DNA of 56,615 nucleotides, the filler included, from Dugesia japonica (taxonomy: Eukaryota), in NCBI GenBank assembly GCA_001938525.1. It is 6 parts of 6 records of this genome, joined end to end, with 100 filler letters (N's around TTAATTAATTAA, not from the genome) between each part and the next. Parts side by side here need not be neighbours in the genome. Positions count along the whole stretch, not along the records: positions 39,988 to 48,109 come from MQRL01465936.1; 5 more parts are not named here. One strand, written 5' to 3'. The translations under genes and the position numbers were made by a program. The notes under the pieces are model-generated. The model ran no database searches and was not told where the DNA came from. It was given only the letters and a program-made list of their open reading frames with translations. Shown here piece by piece: positions 12,895 through 56,615 of the stretch; the stretch's first letter is position 1, and each line of letters starts with the position of its first letter.

Positions 12895-13066
12895 AATTAT
12901 AGCGAGAATAAGTTTTGGATGTAACCATTGATCGCTTTGCAGAATTCATTAAAATAAAAGGTTCGATCAAAATTTTTTTGTTTTTGATTATAATTCTAAT
13001 TTTTGACTGTCTCCTCCAAGAAAGTCAATTCCTGACGACGATAGTCAAAAATTAGAGTTATTATCA
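12895..13066. mobile_element. Fold-back element with a degenerate hammerhead core (Penelope pLTR-like family)
   Basis: aaagtcaattcCTGACGAcgatagtcAAAA at ~13021-13050, with an inverted partner at ~12990-13015. The upstream gcgagaataa..ggatgtaaccattgatcg block is shared with the other family members. Confidence 0.6.
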
Positions 13067-13407
13067 GTTAGATTTTGTATTTCAAATATAGACATTTTTA
13101 AAGTTTTATTAAAATATAATAAATCAATAATATTTAAACAAATATGTTTAAATATTATATCTAACATCCCTCCATTTTTATCCTTTTGAACATATGTTTT
13201 TTAGCCAGATGTAAAAAAAAATTTCAATCCTAATGTAAACTGTGAAATTGACACCGTAGGTGTGAACTTTCACACCTTAATCTAAACATATAAAAGTTTT
13301 TCATATAAAAAATTTTCATATCGTCTGAAAGAATCTAAAGCATGTATTTCGCGAAGTAGTGCTTGAAACATCTTGAAATTTAATAAATTGAACCGGCATT
13401 TTCTAAA

Positions 13408-13980
13408 TTGGTCCTTTCAGAGACTTCAAATAAACAGGATTCGCTGAATAATAAGTTTAATATTCAATCTGCTATTAGTAAATTTATTAACAAGAATAAA
13501 CGCCTTAATTTTAAGGATGAAAAAATATTGAAACGATTAAAAAAGAAAGATTTTAGCAATTGTAAATTTGATAAAGGCAATGGATTAATGATCATGAACA
13601 AGAATGATTATAATAGTAAAATGATCATGATATTGAATACAAATAAATTTGAAAGATTAAACCTAAGAAAGAATAGCGTATCATCACCAATTAATGATGA
13701 AAATCGATTATTAAAAATTTTAAATAAATTAAAAAAAAGAAATCTTATAGATAGTTTAATTTCAAATTCTATGTTATGATATGGAAGTCAGCCTGCAAAG
13801 CTTTATGGCTTACCAAAAGTACATAAACCTGACGTCCCTTTAAGACCAGTTTTAGCAATTATAAACACAGCGCAATACAAAGTTGCTAAAGTACTTGACA
13901 AAATGCTTAAACCATTAACATGTAATGATAGAGAATGTAAGGATACCTTTGAATTCGTAAATTGCTTAAAAAATAAACAA
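13408..13980 (+). mobile_element. Penelope-like retroelement reverse transcriptase N-terminal fragment
   Basis: KFDKGNGLMIMNKNDY (DKG motif), then after a stop GSQPAKLYGLPKVHKPDVPLRPVL and YKVAKVLDKMLKPL..KDTFEFV. Confidence 0.92.
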
Positions 13981-14452
13981 TAACTGTACAAGAATTGCAA
14001 ATCCTTTTACCACTACATTATCAAGAAGATATCCCTAAATTTGGAGATCTGGTCGGCAAATAAAACAATATAACCATCCAGAGAGATATAATATTCATCA
14101 GTCAGATACAAAACAATATGTTCACAGCGAGAATAGTAAACCGGTCAAAAACAGATAGAGATAATAAGCAACAGCACTTTATTAACGAACTAAGATTTTT
14201 CAAAAATAGAATCAAGGTCCAAGATCGATTTGAATTTGTCAAGAAGTTCCGTACGAACTAAAACGCTTCAAAATTCAACCTGCTCCATCATCGAAATATA
14301 TTATCACCTAGACTATATTACAAATCGGCCGTTATCACAACCTTCTCGTTGACAGTAACCAACAATTACCAATATTTGAAGTTTCATATTAATTCATCGC
14401 GGAAGTTCAATCTATAACATCAGAAATTGTGAAAACAGGGCAAGCAATCTTA

Positions 14453-15940
14453 TACTGATGGTCAAATGTTTTGACATACCTAGTATTTTTATAAACGAAG
14501 TTTAATCAGAATACTTTTCTAATTTATTTTGTATGGATATAAAATTCTTTTTTAAAATATCTTAAAATTTTTTAATTAAATATACTTGTTTATATAATAT
14601 TGTCATATATAGTAAATGTTGAATTTATTTAAAAGTTAAATTTTTTGACACAGCAAGTTTAAAATTTATTTAGTAATTTTTTAAGTTTAAGTAAACTTAT
14701 ATTTAAAAGTATATTAGATTCTACTTCAATAATGCACAATAAATTTGAAAGAAAACGGTCCATTCAATGGAGAACAGAAGGGCTTAGTTATTTGGCCATT
14801 GGGACAAGGTTGAATATTACACGCAACGCAGCCTGCAATTTATGCGTCTACAGATTAAAAAGAATTAAGATGAAGACAGGACCGAAGTTAAAAAAGGATA
14901 AGGTGTCTAAGTAGCGCGTAAAAAGAAAGATTTTTGTTCTTAATGAAAACAGAAAAGATAGATGCAACGAAATTAATAAAAGAATGTGATTTAGATGCAT
15001 CAAGAAATACGGTACAGAAATATTTAAGGAAAACTGGTTTTATATACAAAGTAATATCATCCCAAATTCATTTGACAGCCGTTCAAAAGCAATTTCGTAT
15101 GCAAGGTACAAGATCATGGATTTCGTTAAATCCTAATTGGGATCTCACAATTTTTTCTGACGAGAAGCGGTTTTCTTTGGATGGTCCAAATGATTGGAGA
15201 TCCTATGTATACAAATCATCGCCAAGTTATCGTATTAAGAGGCAGTGCAAAGGTGGAAGCGTCATGGTATGGATGATGAAAATACCAAACGGTTTGCTAT
15301 CTTTCAAGTTCTTCAAAGGAAACATAAATTCTGATGGATACATTAAGCTTTTTTCAGAAAGTGCTGTGTCCATAATAAAATAAAATTATAGAGAAAATTG
15401 GTGGCTGCAGGAGGATCATTATTCGGTGCACAAAAGTAAGAAAGTGATGGAATTCATGAAGAAATCAGGTATATAAGTATTGGAATGGCCGGTAAAAAGC
15501 TCAGATCTGAATATTGTTGAGGACTGCTGGAAAACAATATCAGATCTGGTCTACGATGGAAACCAGTTCAATGGTAAGGATGGTTTAGTTGAAAAAATCA
15601 CTGCCGTCATAAATCGTCTTAATGTTAACAAGCGATAAAAAGTTATTGATTTATACAAGTCAATTAGACGTTACTTATGTACAGTATTAGAAAAGCATGG
15701 TGATTTGTATAATCGTTAGGTTTTTCCCATAAATAAATAAGTTTGTCAAAATATTTGACTTTTAAATAAATTCAAAATTTACTAAATATGACTATATTAT
15801 ATAAACAAGTATATTTTATTAAAAACTTTTAAGATATTTTAAATAAGAATTTTATATCCATACAAATAAATTAGAAAATTATTTTGATTAAACATCGATT
15901 ATAAAAATATTAGGTGTGTCAAAAGATTTGGCCATCAGCA
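14453..15940 (+). mobile_element. Full-length Tc1-family (DD34E) transposon with ~200-bp TIRs; transposase pseudogene ~14732-15719
   Basis: TA|TACTGATGGTCAAATGTTTTGACATAC... is mirrored by ...GTGTGTCAAAAGATTTGGCCATCAGCA|TA over ~200 bp. Motifs IFSDEKRFSLDGPND, GGSVMVW, WLQED..SVH and WPVKSSDLNIVEDCW. Stops and frameshifts present. Confidence 0.95.
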
Positions 15941-18839
15941 TATATGTTGGCCATATATGCCAATATGGCACTATTCACTACCATCAAAATTATCAATCCA
16001 AAGCTCTTAGGTGATTTACCCAAATACACCAGCTTATTCAAACATTGCGAGGAAACCCTAAGAAAAGAGAAGAGAGAACAACAAGAACTGAAACAAATTG
16101 CTGACCACTGCAAAAATCAAAGAGTAAAGAACCAAAATCTATAATTTGGTCAAACAACGACAACCACTAGAGATATTTCCAAGACCTACGTTCCCATGCC
16201 TCACCATACCAAATATCGAGGAGGAATTCAACCCTTGCATATTCAACGAACCTTGCTTTAATACAATCACCTCTGGATTGTATGACTTGGTATGCCTATT
16301 CTTAACACACAAACATAAATACACAAGCACAACACAGAAATAAATACTCGATTGATAGTCAATCAGCTCGAAACCTGCAATGCAAAAAATCAATATTCGG
16401 ATCAATATTCAATCAATATGCAACCAAAGAAATCAGACTAAATAAACTATTGTGATTATTAAATCTTGACATTTGTTGGGAACCCACCTGAGTTAGTTGT
16501 ATTGAAAAATAGCTGGGGGGAAAATCAGCCCTCAGAGGACCTGTCCGAGAATTTGCCTAATGCCCATAATTAAGTTATCGGTACAGAGCGGTTGACTTCC
16601 ATCACTTACTCGAAGTGCTCACTCGTATACTTTTATTTTAGGTTCATTATTTCCCCAGTACTTTAATTGTTAATAGTAAAACAAACATAGACGTGATTAA
16701 TGATAAAATTTTGAATCACATCAAATTTAACGCTTCGGAGTCAAGCCACTAGGCGGGCTCACCATTCGCAAAATCGAAGGTGGCTACATCATCGTCGCTG
16801 TTTCAGCGAACCCAAGTCTCTGGTTCGCGACGGTTGGATAAGTCAGCAATGTACTGCTGAAAGAAATCAATCTTATGAGTGAGGATTTGTTTAGCTTGTT
16901 CCACCAGTTTACCATGTTTCTTGACGATAATGTGTAACTTTTTTATTAAACGATTTCTCTGTGTAAGGCGACGCAATAGTGCTCGTTCATTTTGACGTTC
17001 AATATTTTACTTAAATTTCACTAAATGATAAAGAGAGTGAGTTAATTTAAGTAAAAATAAATGGTTGCAATAAGTTGATCTCCCCTAATAAAATATGAAA
17101 AGTACGACAAATTGAGTTATTAAAAATACATGGTGAATTTTATCTGGACAAAAACGTGATTAATCAGAAAATTTATTGATTAAAATATAAAACAACAACA
17201 TTATACAGCACCATCCAAATCAACTTCCCATGGTAGAAGGTACAACTACTAAAAACATTGGAGGTCCGTCTCGTCCGGGTGCAGAATAAGAGTTGGAACT
17301 AAAATGTACCCGATCAACTGCCTTAGGTTGATGGCTTTTCTTTCTTTATGAATTAAGTGTAAGATGTGCCTTAATTCTGCTGACATGTTCTAAATGAATA
17401 CAATGATTAATCAAAATCTTATTCGAAATTTCATGTATCATAACAGTTAGGACCCTCCGAACCGCAAGCAATATGGTTCCTACCTATCAAAGTTGGTGAT
17501 AAAATGAACTCCAATGTTATTAGTAACAGTAATAAGTACACTGGTGATAATAATAATGACAATAAGGGTAATAATGAGAACCACAATCGCTACAATTCTG
17601 TTAGATAGGATAGTAATAAGAAAAGGGGTTAGGTATATTATTCATAGCAGTAGTCATAATGATTCTTAATAATAATAATATTAATAAGCGCAGCAATAAT
17701 AATGATTCTTAAAATAATAATATTAATGATAACAGTTATAATAACGGTATTGATGGTTTTAACACCCGCAACGTTTTAACAACATTTATACTAGTGGCAC
17801 AAAACACTAGTAAAATACTGGAATCGTGGAGTACTAATAATGCTAGCAATAAACCTAACTTATTCATTAAAATGTGGTTGAAGTATTAATAGTTACCGCC
17901 ACATCTTTATTATAGTGATGAGAATAATAACGAGATAGAAAACGTATCGATAAGTGTGAATAAAAGGGGATAATATTAATACTAATAATAATAATGCTAA
18001 CAAGGATAATAATCATATTAGTGACATAATGATTAATAATAGGGGTGATTGTGATAATTGCTATAATAATATTCACTTGAACTTATTATGACTTGTCTTC
18101 GCTGTAACATGACGAATGTTAACTGTGATGCTATGCAAAAATCCATTCGACTAATAGTGATAATTATCCGTAGTCATCAAGTTATTTTCTATTAGACTGT
18201 AATGTTATCTTACAATACAATATGAATGCAACTCAGATGCAACACAATTGCAACACACCAACACGTGTCTGGAAATTTTTTTAAAACTACTCAAACCAGT
18301 AAAATAAAGCAATAATCTAAAATAAACCTCTCCCATATAGCGTAACTATGTAAATAATACAAACTAGAAATGGTAACTAAGTAAATACTCGGCAGCCATG
18401 TAAATAATAAAATAATTTTTAAACATCTATATTTTATTCATTTTATATTAACATAATTATAACAATTACAATTATGATAATATAAAATTAAAAAATCAAT
18501 ATGATTATTGATTTTTTAATTTCTTATTATAATAATTGTAATTAATATAATGATGCTAATATGAATTAGCATTCTTAATTTTAAATGCAATTAAGATATT
18601 AAAATTAAAAAATCAATAATGAATTGNNNNNNNNNNNNNNNNNNNNNNNNNNNNNNNNNNNNNNNNNNNNTTAATTAATTAANNNNNNNNNNNNNNNNNN
18701 NNNNNNNNNNNNNNNNNNNNNNNNNNACATATATATTTATTTATTTTTCAGCCTTATAATTTTTAAAATTTTATATTTTAAAAATTTCAAAAAAACCAAT
18801 TTTAATATTAAATATAAAAATAAAAAAATCTCAGACATC

Positions 18840-19255
18840 TGAAATTCATGAATGTACTCACAGTACATAATACCTAAAAAAAGAATTGAAATTCAAATAT
18901 TATGGTAAAACCATCACACCGGTTTTTTTAAAATATGCAGATATTGAAGATATTCTCATACCAGAGAAAGATGGTAGTCTAATAAGGCATTTACCAATAG
19001 CCGTAGAGCTTTTATTGATTCTGTTATTTGATACCATAATGAAATACAAGTACTATTTGTTTTCCGATTCAAATTTTATGGTCGAAGTTTTACAATGTAT
19101 TGATGACTTGTAAAAGAATGTAGTGAGCTCTTGGTACAAGAAAACTATGTGTGTGGAAATGAACTTGACAACAACAGAACAAGAGACATTTACGAAAAGC
19201 ACACATTGCTATATTTGTGGAAGCAATAAAAACAATTTGCTTCGTGATCATGATT
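18840..19255 (+). mobile_element. Polinton pPolB N-terminal fragment (exo I plus start of the endonuclease VII-like Zn domain)
   Basis: KFKYYGKTITPVFLKYADIEDIL (cf. FKN..KQ...PFVIYADFESIL), RHLPIA, then THCYICG..LLRDHD. Confidence 0.8.
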
Positions 19256-21559: not shown

Positions 21560-21930
21560 TACTGGAATGGAATTACAGATTTCAACGCCGTATCATCATA
21601 CTGCAAATGGAAAAATAGAGTGGCAGTTCATAAGAATAATAGATTAATGCAACGAAGTAGAAAATAGCACAAAAGACTCCAGCGGAATTAATGATAGAGT
21701 ATTAGTCAGGAAATTGTTGGAGAAACAGAGGAAAAGGATAGTAGTTAAAACAACATTAAGAATATGACTCGAAGACACTTTCAGGTTGAAGAGTGGATTT
21801 AAGTCAGGTGTTAAGGTGGCGATAGGAGTAAATAAAATGTCAGACTATATCAAGTACTAGAAGAGTGGCACGAGAAGAGATACAGAGCAAAATAGAAAGT
21901 TCTGTAAAAGGTTAGAAACGTCTTAAAGGA
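21560..21930 (+). mobile_element. Gypsy integrase C-terminal remnant
   Basis: GMELQISTPYHHTANGKIEWQF, later R.FQVEE, resembling the integrase at 7.7-8.1 kb. Confidence 0.7.
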
Positions 21931-24989: not shown

Positions 24990-27200
24990 GATATGTTTTG
25001 TTTGAATGAAGTTATTTTTAGTCCTTATAAAGATAAGTTGGCGAATATAGGGGTTGTAGCTGCGAATATTGTGTCTTATGTTAGAGGAACTGATAAAATC
25101 TCAGTAAGAATAATTAACTTAAAAAATAAAGATATTACAATGTTTAGAAATACGAGATTAGGTTGTATTGAGATTGTAGATGATACAAAAGATAATATTG
25201 GAAATATTAATAGAATATATCAAGATACTGGGATGGAGCATATCCGATGTATTACGGATATGATTATGAACAGACATTAAGTTGATATCGATAAAAATGC
25301 AAAAAATACTGTATTAAAGATAATAACAGAATTCAAAGCTATATTTAGTAAAAATAATTATGATATCGGATATTGTCCAATTTTAAAACACGAAATAGAT
25401 GTCATTGATCCTAAATCTAATGCCCAACCATTACGAAGAGCTCCTCTTCATCTAGAAAGTAAAATTGACGAGATGATCAAAGAGCTTAAACAAAATGGAA
25501 TTATACGCGAGAGTTCAAGTCCGAGGTCTTCATCTATTCTGGTTGTTCAAAAGAAATCTGGAGACATTAGGTTATGTATTGACTATAGAAAATTAAACTC
25601 AGTTTGCTAACAGATCTATACATTCTATTCCAGATAACTAATTGTTGTTTGATTCACTTGCGTGATCAAGATTATTTAGTGCATTTTATTTATCTAGTAA
25701 TTATAACAATGTAGAAATAAGTGACAAAGTCAGAGGAAAAACAGCTTTTGCTAAACGAAAAGGTCAGTATAAATTTAATTGCATGCCTTTTGGGATGTGT
25801 GGAGCAACAGAAACTTTTCAAAGATTAAGAAGAAAAAAAGAGAAGAAAAGTTTGATAATTGCTTAATATATCTCGACGATATTTTGATTTTCGGGAAAAG
25901 CATAAAGGAACACAATGAAAGACTGAAAACGGTGATAGAGTAGATACGGTAGTCAGAAGTTAAGTTATTTCCCAAGAAATGCGTTTTGTTGAAAACTTCA
26001 GTAAAATATTTGGGTCACATAATATCAAGCAAAGCAGTGACAACTGATCCAGAAAAAATTAGTGCAGAAAAGTTTTGCAGTATTTCTAATACAAATGAAG
26101 AATTATCAAGTTTTCTTGTGCTTTGCAATTATTACAGAAAATTTATTTGGGGATATGCCAAAATTGTTAAAACTCTAGAAGATTTGATAAGAGATGCAAA
26201 CATCACGATAAACAGAAAATAGGTAGATTTAACATGGGAAGAATTTCATAAGGAATCTTTCGAAAATCTGAAACATGCTCTCACAAGCGTACTATTTTTA
26301 TCGATTTCAAATAGGAATGATATTTTTGTATTGAATACAGATGCTAGTCACTTCGCAATGTGAGCAGTTTTAAGTCAAATGCATGATAACAAAGAAAAAG
26401 TAATATGCTATGGATCTAAAAAGTTTTTAAAGGCAAAAAAAATGTATTGTATCACCAGGAAAAAACTCATGGTAGTTTTTTACTTTGTGAAGATATACTA
26501 TTGTGAAGAAATTTATTATTCACACAGACCATAAGAGTTTAATATGGATGTTGAATTGGAAAAGATCAAATACATCACAGTACTGCTCCAGGATTGATGA
26601 ACTAAGTATATATGATTTTGAAATTAAGCATCAAAAATGAAAATTACATGCAAACGCCGATGCACTTTCTAGAGAATTTCAATGCGAAAAATATGAAGTA
26701 AAACATATAGACCCAAAAACTAGACGAAATGTCAAAGTTCAACAAAAGCGATTAAGATAATGAAGATTATCGACAAATCAATGAATTAAAAGATGCCCAT
26801 AAAGAGTATAATGAAATGAAAATTAATGACATTTTACAATATTTTTACGGTCGATTAGGCCATGCAAACAATAAAAAAAACTTTGACTAATATCAAGAGA
26901 TACCATGAATGGATAAACATGGAAAACGATACGTAGAAATTTGTGACAAATTGTATGCCATGTGTTGAGAGAAAGAGAAAAATAAGTTGGGATACAATAT
27001 CAAAATTTCTTTTACAGCGACAGAACCATTTGAAAAAATATGTTGCGATATAATGGGACCACTACCAAATTCCGAGGGATATTCATATATTTTACGAATC
27101 ACCGATGTTTTTTCTAGGTGTATAGTGTTAATACCATTGAAGGGTATTTCTGCAAAGGAAGTTATCGAAATGATATTAGAAAGATGGATAGCGTACTTTA
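24990..27200 (+). mobile_element. Ty3/Gypsy pol remnant (RT, RNase H, integrase)
   Basis: GIIRESSSPRSSSILVVQKKSGDIRLCIDYRKLN, KTAF, MPFG, CLIYLDDILIFG, VKYLGHIIS, FVLNTDASHFA, HTDHKSL, HANADALSR and PFEKICCDIMGPLP. Confidence 0.95.
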
Positions 27201-27397
27201 GGATTTTCATAGATTTTCATAGATTCTATTTTCAACATTTATAACCAGAATGAATTGAGCAATATTTCCTGAAGAAGGCATAGGCGAAATATTGAACCAT
27301 CTATGAAAATAGAAAAACATCGTTTTGATCTTGGCAATTGAAAATAAATTTTACTTTTATAATTACAATTATTGTGGGAATAATTGTTGGACTTAAG
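27200..27397 (+). mobile_element. Member of the hammerhead fold-back family
   Basis: ttcCTGAAGAaggcataggcGAAAtattgaa at ~27266-27297. Downstream attacaattattgtgggaataattgttggac matches the family end block. Confidence 0.55.
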
Positions 27398-27419
27398 TAA
27401 GTAGTTACGCAGGGTCTAT

Positions 27420-37070: not shown

Positions 37071-37354
37071 TTCATTTAATATATTTTCTAAAAGAGGTTA
37101 TTTAAACAAATAATCTTTATTTAAATTAAAACTCACATTAGATATTGAGATATGTATTATAAAATAAAATGTATCGATAATTTGAATTTTATTTTCAATT
37201 AAAATCCATTTTATTGCTTATTTGATGTTGGACCAGAATTAATGCAACCATCTAATGGTTTTTTTTTAGTGGTTAAATTTAGAGTATTTTCTTTAGACCG
37301 TTATGGAATTTTTAGACTGGAAATCTATAATAAATAAAAATTTAATGAAAACAA

Positions 37355-37810
37355 TATTTTACAAGAATTATTGCGAGAATAATTGCTAGACGTAACCATT
37401 GATGGTTTTTGAGATTTCATTAAAATAAATTTGATCGAAGCTTTATTTTAATGAAACATCAATGTAGTTTATAATATTTATAATTAAAATAAACTTAAAT
37501 AAATAACTAATTTTAAATAAAAAATAAAATTTAATTATCAAACATTTTAATTAAATTAGAATTTAAAAATTTAAGTTTAAAATAAAATCTAAATTGGAAT
37601 TTAATTTAAATTTAATTAAAATAATCCAATAAAATTTTAATAAAATACAAATAATTTTAAATAATAAAACAAATTTCTAAAATTTATCAAAAAGTTAAAA
37701 TCAATAAGACAATAAGTCGAAAATTTAAATATCTATCAAAAAAGAAATAAAAAGAAACAAAACAACATTTTGATCGAAACTATTAATTTAATGAAATATT
37801 AAAATCTCAT
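37355..37810. mobile_element. Degenerate member of the hammerhead fold-back family
   Basis: attattgcgagaataattgctagacgtaaccattgat..tttcattaaaata at ~37367-37430, and aagacaataagtcGAAA ... ttttgatcgaa at ~37706-37780. Confidence 0.5.
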
Positions 37811-40076: not shown

Positions 40077-40425
40077 CTTGGACAATGATTGTATATCAGG
40101 TGTGTCGAACTCATTCAAACAAACGGGCCAAATATGCGATGGCAAAATGTACGCGGGCCGAATAACATTTACAAAATTTGTTGAGGTTTTAATATTATTG
40201 ATTCGGCAGGGGACTACTTCAACTACTAATTTGTCTATTAATAAATCATTATTTGTAAACTTTTTTATTAAATATTTTGAAAATACCGACAAAACTTTCC
40301 GGCAACCTATTAAAACCTCAACAAATTTTGTAAATGCAATTCGCCGCGTGAGATCTTTGCCATCGCACATTTGACCAGTTTGTTTGAATGAGTTCGACAC
40401 TCCTGATATACAATCACTGTCCAAG
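40077..40425. mobile_element. hAT-end-derived fold-back (inverted repeat arms ~130 bp)
   Basis: CAGGTGTGTCGAACTCATT..GGGCC (Charlie-type end) at 40097 and its complement ending at 40405. The two opposite-strand ORFs in the track share the same N-terminus for this reason. Confidence 0.85.
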
Positions 40426-41705: not shown

Positions 41706-41937
41706 TCATACGTAAGTCATATTTTCATACCACCCAATATACATACATACAACTGAACGATGTTTAATAAATTAATAATAAAGATGAAATTGTATGATTT
41801 CCAGAGTTAAAATAATTAAAGCATTAAATTTTTAATGAATAATTATTAATTATATCAAATTAATTAAAATAAACTAATTAAAAAAACTACAATGCAATAA
41901 ATGTAGTGACAATTAAAGTGAAATAAAAAAGACATAC

Positions 41938-42431
41938 TTATTAGGGAATAAATCAGTCCATGTGTCATCACCAGCAAATTTTATATCAAATCCTGCTAGA
42001 TTCCACTGATTAATTATGCTATCTTCAAACAATTCAGAAGATCCAAAATTGCTACCTATGTCTACAAATGTTGGAAAACTACCAGTAGTAAGGCCTTTAA
42101 TTCTTTGTAATGTAGTCGTTGGAGGATCAGATAGAAAATGTGATATAAAAACATTTTTAGATCGTTTCTTTTTTAAAAAACGTATAATATCAATATGGCC
42201 TTGATAAAAAGAGAATTTTGATAAATTAGGATCAATAAATTCATATTTGAGAGAATCAACCAGTAGCAAAACAATTTTTTTGTATGGTGAAAATTTACAA
42301 AATGGACTTTCAATAGTACAAGAATTGGATTCATATATCTCTGATCTATTTATTAAAAAACCATACAAAAAATTTGCAATGCTCAATATTATACCAAGAA
42401 AACATAAAATAACTGATTTTTTAACAGTCAT
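41938..42431 (-). CDS. PIGO: GPI ethanolamine phosphate transferase 3 (PIG-O/GPI13), first coding exon
   Basis: N-terminal TM ending F.YGFLINR, KKIVLLLVDSLKYEF, FLSDPPTTTLQRIKGLTTGSFPTFVDIGSNF and FAGDDTWTDLFP. GTATGT donor at 41937 (minus). PPTTTLQR favours PIG-O over PIG-G (PTVTMPR). Confidence 0.92.
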
Positions 42432-43119
42432 AATTACGTATATAAGTTATATTAAAAGACGCTGCAAATTAATTGCAAAATTAATCAAAGGTAAATATTA
42501 TTAAAACAAAGGAAAATAATTTCGATTTATTTATGAATTTATTTTTACGAAAATTAATCAAATATAAAATTTATTTACATTTTGATACAATGTTTATTGC
42601 AATGTTAATTTTGAATAAATTAGATTTTATCTATTCATTTGGATTCATTTTCTATTCACTTCTTAATTTTATTTTAATCAGACAACAATATCCATAATTT
42701 GAACTATTCAACATAATCTAACAATAAATAAAGTAATTTTTTTAAGAGTAAGGCAATCAGACATTCAGGTTATTATTTATAATAAGACTTGTAACATTGA
42801 GATATTTTTTTCACAATATGTATGTTTGGTGTTTTATTTATAAATTAACCTTTTTATTGAACATGTTTAAAAATGAACATTCTAATTTATTAATTCCATT
42901 TTAAAATTGTTTTACTTTTTTACAATTTTGGCTAAATTCTTTAAATTATAATATTTCCTAATTGACTCATTCTAATCTTTTTGATCTTTATAAGACAGTA
43001 TTCAACTATTTCTTGAATTATTTATTTTACCAAGGACATCCATATAATTGATAAATAGCATTTGACTTCATTCAAAATATTTGAATATTAATTTGAATAT
43101 AAATATTTGACTTTTCTTT

Positions 43120-45329: not shown

Positions 45330-47200
45330 CAAAAGAATTGTTACGCTCAAATATTCCAAAACGAGAATATTAGGATTATACAAAAAATATTATTTAGATC
45401 GATTTCTCTGAAAAATACGGATCCATGTAACAACATACAATATCACTATACCATTTTTCTCTCTCTGCAAGCATATTAGCAGTATGTTCCAAGGGGAATT
45501 GCATTTCCGTAAAAATCCGTTTTACAAATTCTGTATTGCCTTTTTAATCTTTGCTTCAAAGTTAGTGGTTAATATCATGGTTTAATTCTGATTAGCTTAA
45601 TTCTTATCACAATCTTATGTTTTACCAGACATATTCTTCCAATATTCTAATGATCCGCCATTTACACGTTTTCTCTGTTTTTATTATTTACGTAAATTTG
45701 TTGTTCTCTTTGACCTATATAATTTTTAAGGCTCAGGTCAACAGTTTTCTGTTCTTTATTTGACTACTTAATTTTCCTTTAATGTTGCTTACGAAGTTTT
45801 TCTTTTTGACTCACTTTAACATCTGTCATTTTCGACACACTGTATCTGAAGGACTTTTGTATTTATGTATGACTGTTATAATCTGATATCATCTTCAAAA
45901 ACACTGGGAATATAATTTCTTTGGAATTATCTTTGAAGTTACTTGCATCTTCGTTGTTTCTACTGTTTTCATCATACTCACGTTTCTGCATCGTTACTTC
46001 TCATTAATAACTGTTCTCATAGCCTGTTAACACATGTCACACTCATTATATTGATTCGTGCCCAAGTGCCTAAAATACATTAGAAAGTTTCCCCGTTTAT
46101 AATTAAATTCACACTCGGTCTTGTTAATAGCATGTTAGTAGGTAGATAGTGGCACACGGGCACAATTTGGTAATGAGCCAAATTGTGCCCGTGTGCCACT
46201 ATCTATCTACTCATGTTATACAAAATTTCTACCGCTGGTTAGCCTTAATTGCTCCAATTGTATCTTCAAGCTTTTTTTCTCTTTAGGAACCTATATACTT
46301 TTCCAAAATTACCCAACTTTTCAACATACTGAAAAGATTTTATTCATTTCTTAGTTAGCAAACGTCTTCAACTAACTCCTCTATTCGTGAAGCTCATTTT
46401 TGAGCATTACTTATTAAAATAGACTTAATCTGTCGATCCGTGCTTGTATGCAGTTTTTTTAGTCCAACTTTGAATAACATTTATTGGTTCTATGATTATT
46501 TCTGTTACATTTCTTACACTGTATTTCCTGACATAATCTTCTTATATGTTCTTTTCCACAACCAAAAGATATTGCCGATCTTCTATCCCGACAATACCTA
46601 TGTGTCCTTTTTTGTAACCCTCTACCTTTCCTTTGTTGGAAAATCGATCGTTGTATGACATGTTTTGAACCTTCTCTTTTTTCATTTTGTCCCCTTGTGA
46701 GCCAATATAGCGTAACTTTTTACGTTTATCTGTTAGTTCAAATTATCCATCATAGTCACTGTCTTCTGAATATGTTTTTACTTGTTATCTTCTGTAGCAA
46801 TTTTTTCTCTGCTTCCTTATTTCTTATGCATACTATCAACATTCTTGTCATTACCGTTTCCTTCGTAAATTCTTAATTCTCGAACAACCTACCCATCTAG
46901 TCTTACACTTTTAAAGGTATGTTTCAATATATTCCTTTCTAATTCGAATAAATTTCATAATCTTTGAACATGCCTCTTTCATGATCAAATAGCATTCTTG
47001 GTTTGGCTTGAAATTCCTGTCTTTGCAATGTTTTCGCTTACAAGTCTAATAGATCATCAGCGATGATGTATGTTTTAAATCTCTCTTGTTTTTTCTTTTG
47101 TGTGATACCCTTGGGTTTGAAATACATTTAACATCTTTTAATAAATTTCAATAAAACATGCAACAATCATTTACTGTTTACACCCGTGTTAACCGTTGCC
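45330..47200 (-). mobile_element. Ty3/Gypsy gag-pro-RT(5') remnant
   Basis: Minus strand: gag start near 47200; knuckles GCGKEHIRRLC..CKKCNRNNHRTNKC (~46480-46570); protease RPSVNLIINGETF*CILGTWARINIMS (~46040-46125); RT start NGFLRKCNSPWN (~45490-45520). Confidence 0.8.
46137..46211. mobile_element. 75-bp TIR-only element with a 6-bp TSD (candidate mini-Polinton)
   Basis: CATGTT|AGTAGGTAGATAGTGGCACACGGGCACAATTTGG-TAATGAG-CCAAATTGTGCCCGTGTGCCACTATCTATCTACT|CATGTT; 34-bp arms with 1 mismatch. Confidence 0.85.
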
Positions 47201-49640: not shown

Positions 49641-50619
49641 ATTTATTCATTTAAATATTTTTTTTAATTAATTAGTTAAATCTTCAAAGAATCAATTATA
49701 ATCAAATCAATAACTATTTGAGAAACTAATTTGATTCATTATTATCCTTATTTATTGTAATAACCTAATTGAAAATAAAAAATTGTAAAGGTTTTTCAAT
49801 CTTTATAATTGTAAAAGCTTGAATTTCACTTATTATTTTACAAAGTCTAAAGTCACTATATTTTACACTTAAAATTAATGTTTTAGATATTTTTCTCGTA
49901 ATTATTTGAAAANTATTTATCCAATCAATTATTTTAGTTATAGTCAGTAAATATTTAAAATTATTTCAAACTATCTAGTGCTTAATAAAAATTTCAATTA
50001 TTTCAAATTAAAGTTTGAAATTAACTATTGTCATTAAGGTTAAAGATTGACAATTTTTTACCATTTTATTCTTTTTTAGCATTAAATTCTCTATCTAATA
50101 GTTACTTTGATGCTTAAATTTGAGTTAAGTTTTTATTTTTATTAATCCTCGATTCTAATTTTTAAAAAAAATGCATAATTTTAACGATTTATATGAAAGA
50201 TTTTTCTAACATTAATGTGTTTTCACATAAATTCAAGTTGTATGTACTTTTACTGCTAATTATTTGAAAAGTATTAAATCCATCATACTTAATCTATTCT
50301 ATCAATTATATGAGTTATTTCCAACAATTGCTTAAAAATTATTTCAATGAATAACTGCTTAATAAATAATTTTCTATTTTAAATAAAACATTAATTAAAA
50401 AATACATTGGAAATTAAAATTTGATTTAAAATTATTTCAAAATTTCTTAAATAATTAATAAATACTTTAATTTAACCGTAAAAAATTTTAAATTTAATAA
50501 TAAAATACATGCATGAAATCTAATTTATTTTCAAAACACAATTCAATTTACCTAAAAAAAAGCATAGTTTTAATCAAATTACACATTGAAAATTAATCAA
50601 TTCATTATACTTAACTTTA

Positions 50620-50855
50620 TATTTACAATTATTGTGAGAATAATTGTTGGACTTAACTATTGATCGCATTTGAGATTTCATTAAAATAAGAAAAGGNNNN
50701 NNNNNNNNNNNNNNNNNNNNNNNNNNNNNNNNNNNNNNNNNNNNNNNNNNNNNNNNNNNNNNNNNNNNNNNNNNAAGACTATTGTCGAAAATTTGAACCT
50801 TTTTACAAATAAATTTTATTTTGATCGAAGCCTTTTCTTATTTTAATGGAATATT
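50620..50855. mobile_element. Member of the hammerhead fold-back family (centre lost in a gap)
   Basis: Left arm tttacaattattgtgagaataattgttggac..ttcattaaaataagaaaagg; right arm aagactattgtcGAAA..ttttgatcgaagccttttcttattttaatg. Confidence 0.6.
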
Positions 50856-51888: not shown

Positions 51889-52528
51889 ATGAACGGTTTC
51901 CCCTAGTTCATATAAAACATGCAGTCTATTAAGTTTTTGAACCTAGTGGTAGTGGAAAACTTTGTTTGTATAATAATTACTGAAAGCCAATTTATTCAAG
52001 TCGAAATTTAATGAAATATANTGGCATAGAGGTGCCGATGAAGAGATTGAACTGATTCAATTAGAATTTCGTAATATCCAAATGAAGATTATAAACGGAT
52101 TCGATAAAAAGTGGAGCAAACGATTGAAACCTGGTAATGATATTGTTGTTGACGATCTGTAAGAAGATGCAAAAAAAGAAAAGGATTTCAATAATTTATT
52201 CACAAAGATATCAAGAAATTGTAATGTTACTGTGATATTCATCACTCAAAACCTATTTCACCAAAGTGGTAGTCAAAAAACGCGTAATCTAAACTTACAA
52301 TACTTGCTTCTATTTAAAAATCGGAGAGATCAAACAGTTGTTGATTTTCTATCAAGACAGGCTTATCCAAATGATAGGCATTTTATTATTGAATCATTTC
52401 AAGATGCAACATATAAACCGCATGGATATCTATTTCTTGACTTTACACAATAATGTCTAGATGAATATAGAATGAGAACGGATATATTCAATCCAAATGG
52501 TATGACAGTGTATCAACAAACTAGGTAA
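51889..52528 (+). mobile_element. Polinton/Maverick A32-like (FtsK/HerA) packaging ATPase pseudogene
   Basis: Walker A remnant PSGSGK(T), Walker B IVVDDL, FTKISRNCNVTVIFITQNLF, LNLQYLLLFKNRRD, ESFQDATYKPHGYLFLDFTQ and RMRTDIF. Confidence 0.92.
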
Positions 52529-52849
52529 TTTTATTCATGTTATAAAATGGCAAAATTTAAGAAATTTATAGTTGATCAACTAGCTGATGGTGATAATAAA
52601 CAACGAGAAAATTTTTTTGTGAAGGAAAGGAATGTGAAAAAGAAGAAACAAGCGCATAAGAAGCAACTTGTAAATAATAAGAAGCAATTGAATATCTTTC
52701 AAATACTAGCAAAACAGAACTGAATAAACCTGAGAAGGAAGAATGGAAAATGGATATCAATATAAACGATTTACTGATATGTATGTTATGTATGCTAGTT
52801 TCAGCAGGAATGTTGTTAGTAAATAATTTTACTAACACAATATCTCATA

Positions 52850-53660
52850 AACAGTTCATTGGAAATTACTATGTATATGATTTTTTTAAGCAAAATTAAT
52901 CATAATATAGTGTCTCCATATTACAAACTACATGGAAATAAGACAATTATAACCTCAAGATCAGAAGAATTATCATTTTCTTCAGCTATAAATTGTTATT
53001 TGTTCAAGAAAATAATGATTGCATCAGTTTCTGATCATGATCACTTTACTGGTCAGTATTTGGGCGCAACATGCTAGAAATTTAATTTTGGCAGAAGTGC
53101 GAAAATGAAACTACCCGTTGTATTTCACAATTTAAGAGGGTATGATTTGCATCATATATTGATATATGGAATAAATTAATTCCCACAATGGAGTCTGAAT
53201 TTTATTCCAACAACAATGGAAACGTTTCTGTGCTTAATAGTGGATGGAACTAAATTACCAACTATGAAATTTATAGATTATTATCAGTTTACAAAATCAT
53301 CACTTGATTCAGTGGTAAAATCTTTAAAAGAGACACCGCTGACGTTAAAAAAGTTTAAGGATAGAGAAATTACATCGTCAAAGAGGATATTTCCATATAA
53401 TCATGTCACCAGTTTGCAAGTTCTGGTTGAAAATACTAAAATGCCAGCAATATGGGATGAAATTAATGAGCAAGAGTATGAAATAGCACTTGAAATGTGT
53501 GGAATAACGGATTGTAAGACATTTCTGGACTATATGATGGTTTATTTGCAGTTAGNNNNNNNNNNNNNNNNNNATTTCTTTCAACAGTTCAGATTGAAAT
53601 AGTTATCGCACAACAAATTGGAGTCATTGAATTTCTTTGGCATACCTGGTATGAGTTCTC
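52850..53660 (+). mobile_element. Polinton pPolB fragment (endonuclease VII-like domain, exo II/III)
   Basis: SDHDHFTGQYLGATC, LPVVFHNLRGYDLHHI (exo II), MKFIDYYQFTKSSLDSVVKSL, KRIFPY, CKTFLDYMMVYL, FQQFR and FFGIPGMS. Confidence 0.92.
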
Positions 53661-53803
53661 ATCATCCTTGATATCATTGAATGAATACTGCAATAAACTT
53701 TTAAAAATTTTATTAATTTAAACAAAACAAATTCTGAATAAATTAAAACTAAATTTAAAATTTTTAAAAAATTCCCNTATTAATTAGAACAAAAAAATAA
53801 AAT

Positions 53804-54052
53804 TTAATATAAAAGCTGTGATCAAAATTTAGGTTTTATTTATTGATATTCGATAACAATTCGATATTTCGACCTTGTCTTCGTCAGAAAAAAAGTCAAT
53901 TCCTGACGAAGACAAGGTTGGAATATCGAATTATTATCCAATATCAATAAATAAAACCTAAATTTTGATCAAAGCTTTTATATTAAATGAATTCTATAAA
54001 ACGATCANTAGTTATGTCCAACAATTATTCTCGCAATAATTGCAATTGTAAA
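53804..54052. ncRNA. Fold-back element carrying two head-to-head minimal type-I hammerhead ribozyme motifs (Penelope pLTR-like)
   Basis: Minus 53887-53857: CTGACGA-A-GAC-AAG-GTC-GAAA-TA-TC-GAATTG. Plus 53897-53933: CAATTC-CTGACGA-AGACAAGGTT-GGAA-TATC-GAATTA. Arms ~83 bp, nearly perfectly inverted. Confidence 0.72.
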
Positions 54053-56615
54053 AAAAAATAAAAATTTTAAAAAATAAAAAAAATTTGATCCCATCAAAAA
54101 TATTAAAATTCAAAATTCACGATAACCACAGTTGCTATGGTTTTTCACTAAGGCGAGTAGCTGCGGTTATCAGCTCACATCTACTTACTCATCTTTTTTT
54201 ATTGCTTCAATCTTTCTCATATCGTTATCACAGGGTATTTATTATTAGAATACTACTACCATCATTAGTACTATCTTAGTTATTATTGGTATTGTTTCCA
54301 TCGTTGCCAGTATTATCACTACTATTCCTGTTGTTCTCGTATTACTAATCATCTTTATTACCATCATGCAATCAAACCCATAAGTATGAATAATCATCAC
54401 AATTAAAATATTGCTNNNNNNNNNNNNNNNNNNNNNNNNNNNNNNNNNNNNNNNNNNNNNNNNNNNNNNNNNNNNNNNNNNNNNNNNNNNNNNNNNNNNN
54501 NNNNNNNNNNNNNNNNNNNNNNNNNNAGACGATGCCCAGTCTTTAAACTGATCAAACACGCTAGGGAATTAGCTCAATATACCCAGTATTTAGAACACAT
54601 CTTGAATCTTAACTAGGTAAAGCCTCCCGACGGAACAGATTTAGCTCGTTTTGCCAGGATGTTCTTTTTGGAGCCGCCCCCAACTGATGCCAGAGAATTC
54701 TTTGAATCTTCCATGTCTTATTAATAAATGTTTTTAAATATTGTACTTCTTTTTGAGTAAATCATTTATGGTTTCTATTTTATTAATAGAATGACAGACG
54801 AACGCATATGGATGCTCTTCCATTTACAAAAAAGTCGAATAATCTTCCAGCAGATTAGTAACCCATGTCGCAGATACGTCGGAATATTAAGGGATAACGG
54901 AAACACTCCTTCAAAGAACCGCATACAGTGTTGAGTGGAGGATAGCATGGAGAAGTACCTCCACTGTCATTAGCCGTCTTCCACAGAGCTACCACGAGAT
55001 AATTCCCCCNCCTCATCCACACCTTCATTTACTGTGGACTTCAAAAATCTTCCTTGGACGAGGGACTCACCACCTGAACATTTGTTTTGTATCTTGTGTT
55101 AAAATATTAGTTTTTGGTTTTATTTTGTAGTTCTTGATTATCTTACATTGTCGTAAATCTCCAGAGATTTGATGCCTAATAATAGATTCTAATTTTAAGA
55201 AAGCCACCTTTGTGATATTAATTAACGAGTGTTTTTATAATTAAGTGAATCCAAACCGAGGTAAATCATTGACTAGTAATAGAGAATCTCAACTCGATAG
55301 TAAGGATTTGAATAATCTCGCCAAGCGTAACTGATCTTTTTGGTGGTGATTTACGCCTCCCAGTTAAGCTTGAAGGCGTAAATTGCCACCGAAAAGGTCA
55401 AAAACCAGTTTTGCGAGTTCCAGAAAGATCTTTTCATGTCATATTCACAAGGATGCCTATAAAAGGCTAAACTAGAGTCATTCGCTGAATTATTACGTTT
55501 ATCCCATGATAGAGTATGTTTTGAAATTGAGAGCGCAAGTGCCTCTCTACCCTNNNNNNNNNNNNNNNTCAATACAAATTAAGCGTTAAATTGATTGATT
55601 GCAGTTTTAAATAAAGTTTTAAATGTTTTGCTTTATTTCGCTACTTTTGTTTAATCTGTAAATTGGCTTTATTTGTAAAGTTAATCAACCTTGTTAATTT
55701 TAGTTTTAATGAGGGTTGATCCAAAAACGGTGACGGACAACGTTGGGATATTTTTTGAACAATTGGATTTTGTGTTCATTCTTTAGACGCCAACTAATTA
55801 CGTGTAAATTTTGTGTTAAAATAAATGAAGTTTATCTGTAATGTTTTATTGTTAAAACCGTGTTTGAATTGAAAATAAAGCTTTTTTATTTATTGTTTTC
55901 GTGTTTAAATTTTATATTATATCATAATTACTATTTTAAAGTTATTTGATAATTTTAAACACAGCTTGAAATAAAATACCGTTTCCTTCCAAACTCTATT
56001 AATTTATCGAAACTAACTGATTTTGGACTCGGATAGAGCACGCATTATGATGAAATTTAAGTTAAATAAAATAAAAGCGCAACCTACATTCATTGAACCT
56101 CACACTCCGTACAATTAACTCGTTATCATGAGACTTAAGTCATAGTACACAACTCTCGCTATCACCAAGTCTTAAAATGCACAAAACTCGTGATCATAAT
56201 TCATCTATTGTCAATTCAGTTAATGATTTAATCTGTCCATCTTTTATTCCATATATTTGGCTCTATAATTCACACTAAATATATAATTAACAACCAGTTA
56301 ATTATTTACATATTTTCAACTTAATATAGAAAACTCCTTTACAAATAGACCTCCCAAGGTACTTTATTAACCAATTAATTATCAACTTGTAATATAAATT
56401 TATTCTTTCATTTATTATAATTCTAACCAATTATCCATGAATCTAATATTAACCTTTGAAATTAAGCAATTTAAATATTTAGAAATTTATTAGTTTGTTG
56501 GGGTGAAACACCTGTGAAGAAAGGTAATAAGACCCAAAAACCCAGAATCGGCAAAAGCGAACAGTAGAACCCGTAAACTTACTTGTAATGGAATCCAAAA
56601 GAAGAAAGCGATTAT

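What the first reader, a model, noticed from the sequence alone, without database searches (positions are those of the whole stretch)
46131..46217. Candidate ultra-minimal non-autonomous Polinton: 75-bp hairpin with AGTAG...CTACT ends and a 6-bp TSD
Seen: two 34-bp inverted arms (1 mismatch) around a 7-nt loop, flanked by an exact direct repeat CATGTT. It sits inside a decayed Gypsy. Removing it plus one TSD copy restores the minus-strand frame EILYNMLLTRPSVNLIINGETF before the protease motif, so it is a true and relatively young insertion. Its terminus (GTGTGCCACTATCTACCTACT) matches 18/21 at 4318-4338, about 130 bp from the pPolB remnant. Established: Polintons/Mavericks have AG...CT termini with short terminal (AG)n/(AGT)n-like repeats and make ~6-bp TSDs with a retroviral-type integrase; they are normally 15-25 kb. 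Inference: this is either a TIR-tip-only parasite replicated and integrated in trans by Polinton pPolB/integrase (a 'Polinton MITE'), or a collapse footprint left when nearly the whole element was deleted between its TIRs.
Basis: partly seen in the sequence, partly recalled or inferred. Interest (0 to 1): 0.8.

Follow-up and report, generated by a model that had tools for sequence, protein, structure and literature searches.

The report
Tiny hairpin insertion with Polinton ends
A 75-base DNA hairpin has recently inserted into a dead retrotransposon and carries the end signature of Polintons, giant virus-like transposons about 200 times its size, but one copy cannot tell whether it moves as a mini-parasite or is the scar of a collapsed giant.

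Summary
At 46137-46211 there are two 34-bp inverted arms (one mismatch) around a 7-nt loop, with AG...CT ends and a non-palindromic 6-bp direct repeat. It is a true insertion: 8 of 8 intact Gypsy pol homologues with a protease motif show the spacing the two flanks have without the extra 81 bp. It is younger than its stop-riddled host.

AG...CT plus a 6-bp duplication is the Polinton signature. The 18/21 match at 4318-4338 is modest alone (35 of 1200 shuffles). But none of 1200 shuffles placed such a match near a Polinton remnant, and an (ACT)n run adjoins it. It is not contiguous with pPolB, because a Gypsy RT fragment intervenes. No second copy, parent element or intact TIR pair was found, and the host genome could not be searched.

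Polinton-end origin is about 0.68: a mini-element mobilised in trans 0.36, a collapse in place 0.32. A cut-and-paste MITE is 0.18 and a Penelope/LINE head-to-head insertion 0.07. Ten literature searches found no Polinton derivative this small; ~80-bp palindromic MITEs (MADE1) are the known analogue.

The parts
46131..46136 (.). left copy of the 6-bp target-site duplication
   Evidence: non-palindromic
46137..46170 (+). left arm, 34 bp, begins AGTAG
46171..46177 (.). 7-nt loop (deletion or copy-back junction, inferred)
46178..46211 (-). right arm, 34 bp, inverse of the left arm with one mismatch at position 6 from the tip
46212..46217 (.). right copy of the 6-bp target-site duplication
45383..46554 (-). 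decayed Gypsy host (zinc-knuckle-like segment, protease, start of RT) with several stops and frameshifts; the hairpin sits just upstream of the protease motif
   Evidence: (protease E 4e-4)
4318..4338 (-). candidate decayed Polinton end: 18/21 match to the hairpin tip; no partner end or duplication found
4342..4362 (+). two (ACT)-class triplet runs just outside the candidate end; 2 of the 3 such runs in the window
4185..4256 (+). 72-bp Gypsy RT fragment separating the candidate end from pPolB
   Evidence: 79% identity, E 7e-8
3599..4184 (-). protein-primed PolB remnant (middle of the gene), reading away from the candidate end
   Evidence: E down to 9e-38; homologues carry PF03175

Best explanation
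The 75-mer is an ends-only derivative of a Polinton/Maverick that was copied and integrated in trans, as a MITE-like parasite. Step 1 (shown): a foreign 75-bp palindrome entered an already dead Gypsy with a 6-bp duplication. Step 2 (inferred from the end signature and the 4.3-kb site): both arms are the outer 34-41 bp of a Polinton TIR, joined by internal deletion or by copy-back during replication. Step 3 (inferred, untested): as a single strand it folds into a 34-bp stem like the Polinton panhandle. A helper's protein-primed PolB initiates at the AG repeat of the tip (AGTAG permits a jump-back start; mechanism recalled from adenovirus), and the helper's retroviral-type integrase inserts the duplex with a 6-bp stagger. 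Polinton origin by either route is about 0.68; this mobile route is 0.36.
For: Symmetric AG...CT ends with a 6-bp non-palindromic duplication. Mavericks have 6-bp duplications and (AGT)2//(ACT)2 or (AG)3//(CT)3 ends (PMC8097293). The other 6-bp integrase-type groups read about have different ends: IS3EU/GingerRoot TA..TA (PMC10045372) and Ginger TGTNR (PMC2836005). Polinton remnants are dense here: three pPolB pieces and an ATPase. The best tip-anchored match in the window lies 134 bp from pPolB; 0 of 1200 shuffles gave such a match within 200 bp of a remnant. That site passes Repbase's positions-1-11, one-mismatch rule (PMC4455052) and adjoins an (ACT)n run. An 80-bp TIR-only element exists as a multi-copy MITE for mariner (MADE1; PMC9062482). 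A multi-copy family is more likely than a one-off to be met in a given window (inference).
Against: Only one copy in 56.6 kb. No match in 18 of 18 pPolB loci, and none showed a TIR pair enclosing pPolB. No exact 21-mer in genome contigs. The 4.3-kb match alone is reached by 35 of 1200, 8 of 400 and 5 of 300 anchored controls, and by 6 of 150 in each of two unanchored controls. It was noticed post hoc, covers only 21 of 34 bases, is separated from pPolB by Gypsy RT and has no partner end. Two other sites also pass the 11-base rule, about the chance number by my hand estimate. The sixth base is G/A, not T. All Polinton remnants in the window are old, whereas the hairpin is young. The anole survey reports an apparent absence of non-autonomous Polintons (PMC3014272).
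Confidence: 0.36

Rival explanations
1. Collapse footprint. A full-length Polinton inserted here and was then reduced in place to its two tips, by abortive gap repair or by slippage between short repeats in the fold-back stem (like Tn10 nearly precise excision, recalled). The 75-mer never moved by itself.
For: Same end and duplication evidence. Single copy seen. Polinton fragments are dense here, so past insertions were many. 96% of vertebrate Maverick loci are degraded (PMC8097293). MITE birth by gap repair, microhomology joining and template switching is documented for Tc1/mariner (PMC3814204).
Against: It needs both breakpoints within about 41 bp of the ends of a 12-25-kb element (sizes). 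One-off footprints should be rare per window unless the collapse recurs (inference).
Confidence: 0.32
2. An ordinary MITE of a cut-and-paste DNA transposon family that makes 6-bp duplications and happens to end in AG...CT (unclassified, or an atypical member of a known superfamily).
For: Size and shape match MADE1-type palindromic MITEs. A short motif repeats within each arm like a transposase site (sequence). Cut-and-paste elements are present in the window (Tc1, DDE_3 E 9e-15). The support from the 4.3-kb site is only modest.
Against: The 6-bp groups read about have TA..TA or TGT ends. The window-wide scan for TIR pairs with 5-9-bp duplications gave no nested hAT- or MuDR-style reading inside the element. 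It leaves the match beside pPolB as chance (0 of 1200).
Confidence: 0.18
3. Retroelement micro-insertion: two 5'-truncated cDNAs of a Penelope-like or LINE element, primed on opposite strands and joined head to head, so both outer ends are the RNA 3' end and the duplication is the nick stagger.
For: PLEs often carry an inverted 5'-truncated copy and have variable duplications, and the Naiad clade favours microsatellites (10.1101/2021.04.23.441226). The window holds a probable PLE-type fold-back at 53802-53988 with a minimal hammerhead core. The arms end in short CTAT-like repeats, and the 4.3-kb match abuts a microsatellite-like run.
Against: PLE insertions usually have a 30-40-bp tail on one end only, whereas this element is symmetric to the base. 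It has no hammerhead core and no similarity to the window's PLE-like repeat. The 53.8-kb fold-back has no abutting duplication. AG ends with exactly 6 bp would be a coincidence.
Confidence: 0.07
4. Non-enzymatic origin: break-repair filler DNA, local template switching, a captured small-RNA hairpin or an assembly artefact.
For: The target site is itself near-palindromic around CATG, so part of the repeat could come from fold-back priming (structure). The assembly is gapped (1619 N).
Against: The arms are unrelated to the flanks and richer in GC. No Rfam family reaches threshold; the 32 sub-threshold hits are generic hairpins and the like. Plasmid and phage matches are at chance level (E 7). 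There is no N gap in 45600-46800. The empty-site spacing is clean.
Confidence: 0.07

Closest known systems
Polinton/Maverick elements (group with Endonuclease VII-bearing pPolB)
   Same: AG...CT ends, a short repeat at the tip, 6-bp duplication (PMC8097293); such pPolB remnants occur in the window.
   Different: 75 bp versus 12.7-24.6 kb; arms of 34 bp versus TIRs of 46-1447 bp in intact vertebrate elements; no genes; sixth base departs from (AGT)2.
MADE1 (Hsmar1-derived 80-bp MITE)
   Same: About 80 bp, two TIRs around a few spacer bases, a deletion derivative of its parent (PMC9062482; PMC3814204).
   Different: Mariner parent with TA-type duplication and cut-and-paste movement; multi-copy status is established there and unknown here.
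Gene-depleted Polinton derivatives (polB-less, TIR-flanked Lepidoptera insertions; Tlr1; Polinton-N1A_NV)
   Same: Polinton-related elements lacking their own polymerase that appear to stay mobile (10.1101/2025.02.07.637071; PMC5499653; name only in PMC11296320).
   Different: Those are gene-bearing, multi-kilobase elements; this is TIR tips only.
Penelope-like inverted (pLTR) insertions
   Same: Short fold-back made of two inverted copies; a probable example lies at 53802-53988.
   Different: One-sided tail, variable duplication and hammerhead motif in canonical PLEs; none seen here.

Membership tests
Polinton/Maverick | 6-bp target-site duplication | tested here: met
   a 7-bp reading is possible but breaks end symmetry
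Polinton/Maverick | AG...CT termini with a short terminal repeat such as (AGT)2 or (AG)3 | tested here: inconclusive
   first five bases fit (AGT)2; the sixth is G/A (motifs from PMC8097293, vertebrates only)
Polinton/Maverick | terminal inverted repeats (46-1447 bp in intact vertebrate elements) | tested here: inconclusive
   34-bp arms, below the published range
Polinton/Maverick (autonomous) | encodes pPolB, integrase, ATPase, protease, capsids; 12-25 kb | tested here: not met
   75 bp, 25 codons with a stop in the host frame
Non-autonomous Polinton derivative | TIR identical or close to the terminus of a pPolB/integrase-coding element | tested here: inconclusive
   18/21 match near a pPolB remnant but not contiguous with it; 0 of 18 outside loci match; host genome not searchable
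MITE (any superfamily) | short, non-coding, TIRs and duplication | tested here: met
MITE (any superfamily) | many homogeneous copies at different sites | not testable with these tools
   one copy in the window; no host genome available
IS3EU/GingerRoot, Ginger2 | TA..TA or TGTNR termini with 6-bp targets | tested here: not met
   ends are AG...CT
Penelope-like element | one-sided 30-40-bp tail, hammerhead in the pLTR, variable duplication | tested here: not met
   symmetric ends and no hammerhead core; duplication variability cannot be judged from one copy
Known RNA family (miRNA, ribozyme) | Rfam gathering score | tested here: not met

The most novel reading that the evidence does not exclude
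A multi-copy family of 75-bp, gene-free Polinton satellites: a single hairpin that is at once the replication origin for a protein-primed polymerase and the substrate for the Polinton integrase. It would be the self-synthesising counterpart of a MITE and of a copy-back defective viral genome, and it might compete with its helper for terminal protein and integrase.
Probability: 0.33. Interest if true: 0.72.

Novelty: new variant of a known kind. Interest (0 to 1): 0.45.

Why it matters
The Polinton replication and excision cycle is inferred rather than demonstrated (PMC5499653; PMC2836005). If a 75-bp hairpin is mobilised in trans, it fixes an upper bound of about 34-41 bp on the cis signals for both protein-primed initiation and integration. 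It would give a ready oligonucleotide substrate for biochemistry, and it would show that virus-like transposons breed MITE-scale parasites, which repeat annotators would file as unknown. If it is a collapse scar, it still records how giant elements are lost and marks old insertion sites, which is of moderate interest. If it is a cut-and-paste MITE, it is ordinary.

Tried and rejected
Copies elsewhere: an exact 21-nt end pattern found 0 stretches in genome contigs (a prokaryote collection, so weak evidence). Distant blastn gave 2 plasmid records and 1 phage record at E 7, rejected as chance. Eighteen pPolB loci fetched from genome contigs gave no end match (0 of 18; best blastn hit 11 bp) and no inverted pair enclosing pPolB. 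The AG..CT-plus-6-bp hits in L011 are palindromic 6-mers inside a satellite and were rejected (its output was cut, and I read head and tail only). The host genome and the viral and metagenome contig collections were not searched.

Protein searches: two of three homologue searches returned nothing (decayed host Gypsy; paralogous protease ORF); the third, with an integrase fragment, gave 15 proteins. Pfam on the decayed frames near the element and at 3.5-4.4 kb found no informative family. Names and taxa of the pPolB homologues could not be obtained. The host is unidentified: ADO was not in the exact-match collection, and Atlas gave Eukaryota and, weakly, flatworm-rich clusters for another ORF.

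Other end-like sites: 12828-12848 scores 9, the null median. 54189 and 26218 pass an 11-base rule at about the chance rate (rate estimated by hand). No left end with a matching duplication was found for the 4338 site. The scan wrongly filtered out the element itself and was redone. 'Restores the frame' was rejected as evidence because 81 is divisible by three.

Literature: ten searches showed no Polinton derivative of MITE size. One search (six phrasings of non-autonomous Polinton/Maverick) listed 2 papers. The founding 2006 paper is not held, Repbase entries and subscription journals are outside the library, and no supplements were read, so absence from print is not established.

Full report
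Observation. The window is an AT-rich (26.6% GC), gapped eukaryotic sequence. At 46137-46211 two 34-bp arms with one mismatch at position 6 enclose a 7-nt loop, and CATGTT flanks both sides. The fold is far beyond chance (z -15.1, 0 of 200 shuffles). A 6-mer repeat at this spacing occurs at 0.15% of positions. The repeat can be read as 7 bp, but only the 6-bp reading leaves symmetric AG...CT ends. Of 5 long hairpins in the window only this one has an abutting repeat of 5 bp or more. Of 7 TIR-plus-duplication pairs (6 printed, 1 AT-only row dropped) it alone has a non-palindromic 6-bp duplication. This matters because palindromic 6-mers mimic duplications next to any inverted repeat, as seen in L011. 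No Rfam family reaches threshold.

It is an insertion, and a young one. Fifteen Gypsy pol homologues were obtained with an integrase fragment from the window. They map a decayed minus-strand Gypsy protease and RT start at 45383-46136 (protease E 4e-4), and an in-window paralogue extends the match to a zinc-knuckle-like segment ending at 46554. Eight of the 15 contain the protease motif, and all 8 have Tyr six residues before Arg-Pro. The two flanks, translated separately, have that spacing only if the extra 81 bp are not counted. The host has 10 stops in 175 codons over four segments. The element shows 1 mismatch in 40 paired positions (95% interval 0.06-13%), so it postdates the host's decay (inference).

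What made it. Intact vertebrate Mavericks have 6-bp duplications, ends of (AGT)2//(ACT)2, (AG)3//(CT)3 or a rarer motif, TIRs of 46-1447 bp and lengths of 12.7-24.6 kb (PMC8097293; passages and section 7). The other integrase-type DNA transposons with 6-bp targets end in TA..TA (IS3EU/GingerRoot; PMC10045372, passages) or TGTNR (Ginger2; PMC2836005, passages). Repbase classifies non-autonomous elements by duplication length and the first 11 bases (PMC4455052, passages). The element fits five of six bases of (AGT)2; the sixth, where its two arms differ, does not. That no other superfamily combines AG...CT with 6 bp is my recall of the Repbase scheme, not a test.

Polintons in the window. Homologues of a window ORF (68 proteins; five of seven scanned carry PF03175 and six carry Endonuclease_7) map three pPolB remnants: 3599-4184 (-), 18832-19254 (+) and 52798-53656 (+). 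An ORF from a fetched pPolB locus matches 52142-52501 (E 1e-15), which I read as the packaging ATPase from recalled motifs. All are broken.

The 4318-4338 match. It is the only non-self hit within three mismatches (0 of 100 shuffles), and the mismatches are transitions. Controls that allow for a free choice of length weaken it: 6 of 150 in each of two unanchored nulls, 8 of 400 and 5 of 300 tip-anchored, and 35 of 1200. Position strengthens it: remnants plus 200 bp cover 6.9% of the window and 0 of 1200 shuffles put such a match there. pPolB reads away from it, as expected of an end. Two of the window's three (ACT)-class triplet runs lie at 4342-4362, just outside it. Against: 4185-4256 is Gypsy RT on the plus strand (79%, E 7e-8), pPolB is cut mid-gene, similarity ends after 21 bases, and no partner end or duplication was found. 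I read it as a probable end of a rearranged, related Polinton, with post hoc support of order p 0.002-0.01.

Outside evidence was negative but weak. There was no exact end in genome contigs, only chance hits in plasmids and phages, and no match in 18 of 18 distant pPolB loci (27-49% identity to the query protein). The host genome was not available, so copy number, the decisive quantity, is unknown.

Mechanism. Shown: insertion with a 6-bp duplication and a perfect fold-back. Inferred: the arms are Polinton TIR tips joined by internal deletion or copy-back; the two routes give the same single sequence. Inferred and untested: the folded strand mimics the panhandle, is copied by a helper pPolB and is inserted by the helper integrase. 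Jump-back initiation, a panhandle minimum near 30 bp in adenovirus and short palindromic phi29 replicons are recalled; searches for the last found nothing usable. I give this mobile reading 0.36 and collapse in place 0.32. A multi-copy family is likelier to be sampled, but Polinton debris is dense here, so scars may be common too. Repeated slippage at an internal palindrome of the parent TIR (as in Tn10 nearly precise excision, recalled) could give identical scars at many sites, so copy number alone will not settle it. A cut-and-paste MITE gets 0.18: MADE1 is an 80-bp paired-TIR deletion derivative of Hsmar1 (PMC9062482 and PMC3814204, passages). A Penelope/LINE head-to-head insertion gets 0.07: PLEs form inverted truncated copies but usually with a one-sided tail (10.1101/2021.04.23.441226, passages). 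The window's probable example at 53802-53988 has a hammerhead core and no duplication, unlike this element. Repair filler or artefact gets 0.07.

Novelty. Ten searches (listings and abstract starts) showed no Polinton derivative of this size. What I read in passages describes gene-bearing polB-less derivatives (10.1101/2025.02.07.637071), Tlr1 (PMC5499653), the name Polinton-N1A_NV (PMC11296320), fragments (PMC8504770) or an apparent absence of non-autonomous copies (PMC3014272). PMC6431247, PMC8969392 and PMC9341512 (passages) added only general description. The 2006 founding paper and Repbase were not seen and no supplements were read; either may already list such minis. It works like a MITE and carries Polinton marks; it fails membership as an autonomous Polinton and is unproven as a non-autonomous one. 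Verdict: new variant of a known kind, interest 0.45, rising to about 0.72 if a mobile family is shown.

Noticed in passing
window 53656 and 4184: The plus-strand pPolB remnant ends, and the minus-strand remnant begins, within about three codons of the same motif (P0003 residues 256 and 254). This fits one gene split by an inversion of about 49.5 kb or a scaffolding error, or coincidence; the overlapping codons differ.
   Followed up: partly
window 53802-53988: A 187-bp fold-back (86-bp arms) holding the window's only minimal hammerhead core with a 3-bp stem II (sub-threshold Rfam hammerhead hit E 0.023). It is part of a repeat shared with about 12860-13060, 27355-27399, 37337-37460 and 50616-50689. 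Probably a Penelope-like pLTR inversion.
   Followed up: partly
window 13387-13990 and 15940-16700: Probable Penelope-like RT remnant (motifs recalled; Pfam uninformative; Atlas DUF8422 clusters), with a Tc1 element between the two parts.
   Followed up: partly
window 14451-15942: Tc1/mariner element with 200-bp inverted repeats (91%), TA at both ends and a broken DDE_3 transposase (E 9e-15).
   Followed up: partly
window 2846-2860: Exact 15-base match to the inner end of the left arm plus the loop, collinear with the 4318-4338 match across the pPolB remnant. It was reached by 13 of 5000 shuffled elements and 54 of 3824 reversed real sequences, so it is borderline.
   Followed up: partly
window 54179-54259: An 11-base end-like match (1 mismatch) ending at 54189, followed 62 bp later by the window's third (ACT)-class run, about 530 bp from the other large pPolB remnant. 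Chance level on its own.
   Followed up: partly
window 1203-2075 and 2020-3604: Intact intronless cysteamine dioxygenase (ADO) ORF (Atlas PF07847, 0.95). Its 3' end and downstream DNA are partly duplicated in tandem together with a Gypsy-like fragment.
   Followed up: partly
window 40077-40425: 349-bp fold-back (118-bp arms, 87% complementary), with an inner CAGG-type inverted repeat flanked by TA; probably a MITE.
   Followed up: no
window 41913-42446 (-): Exon resembling a GPI ethanolamine phosphate transferase (name recalled from motifs; Pfam Sulfatase E 0.0025).
   Followed up: no
window 7259-8156, 11015-11817, 21564-21683, 25299-27199: Further decayed Gypsy remnants of the same broad clade.
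   Followed up: partly
L001-L018: Eighteen loci in records titled as bacterial or archaeal MAGs encode Polinton-type pPolB, nine of them in one assembly with near-identical copies; probably eukaryotic or viral contigs binned into prokaryotic genomes.
   Followed up: partly
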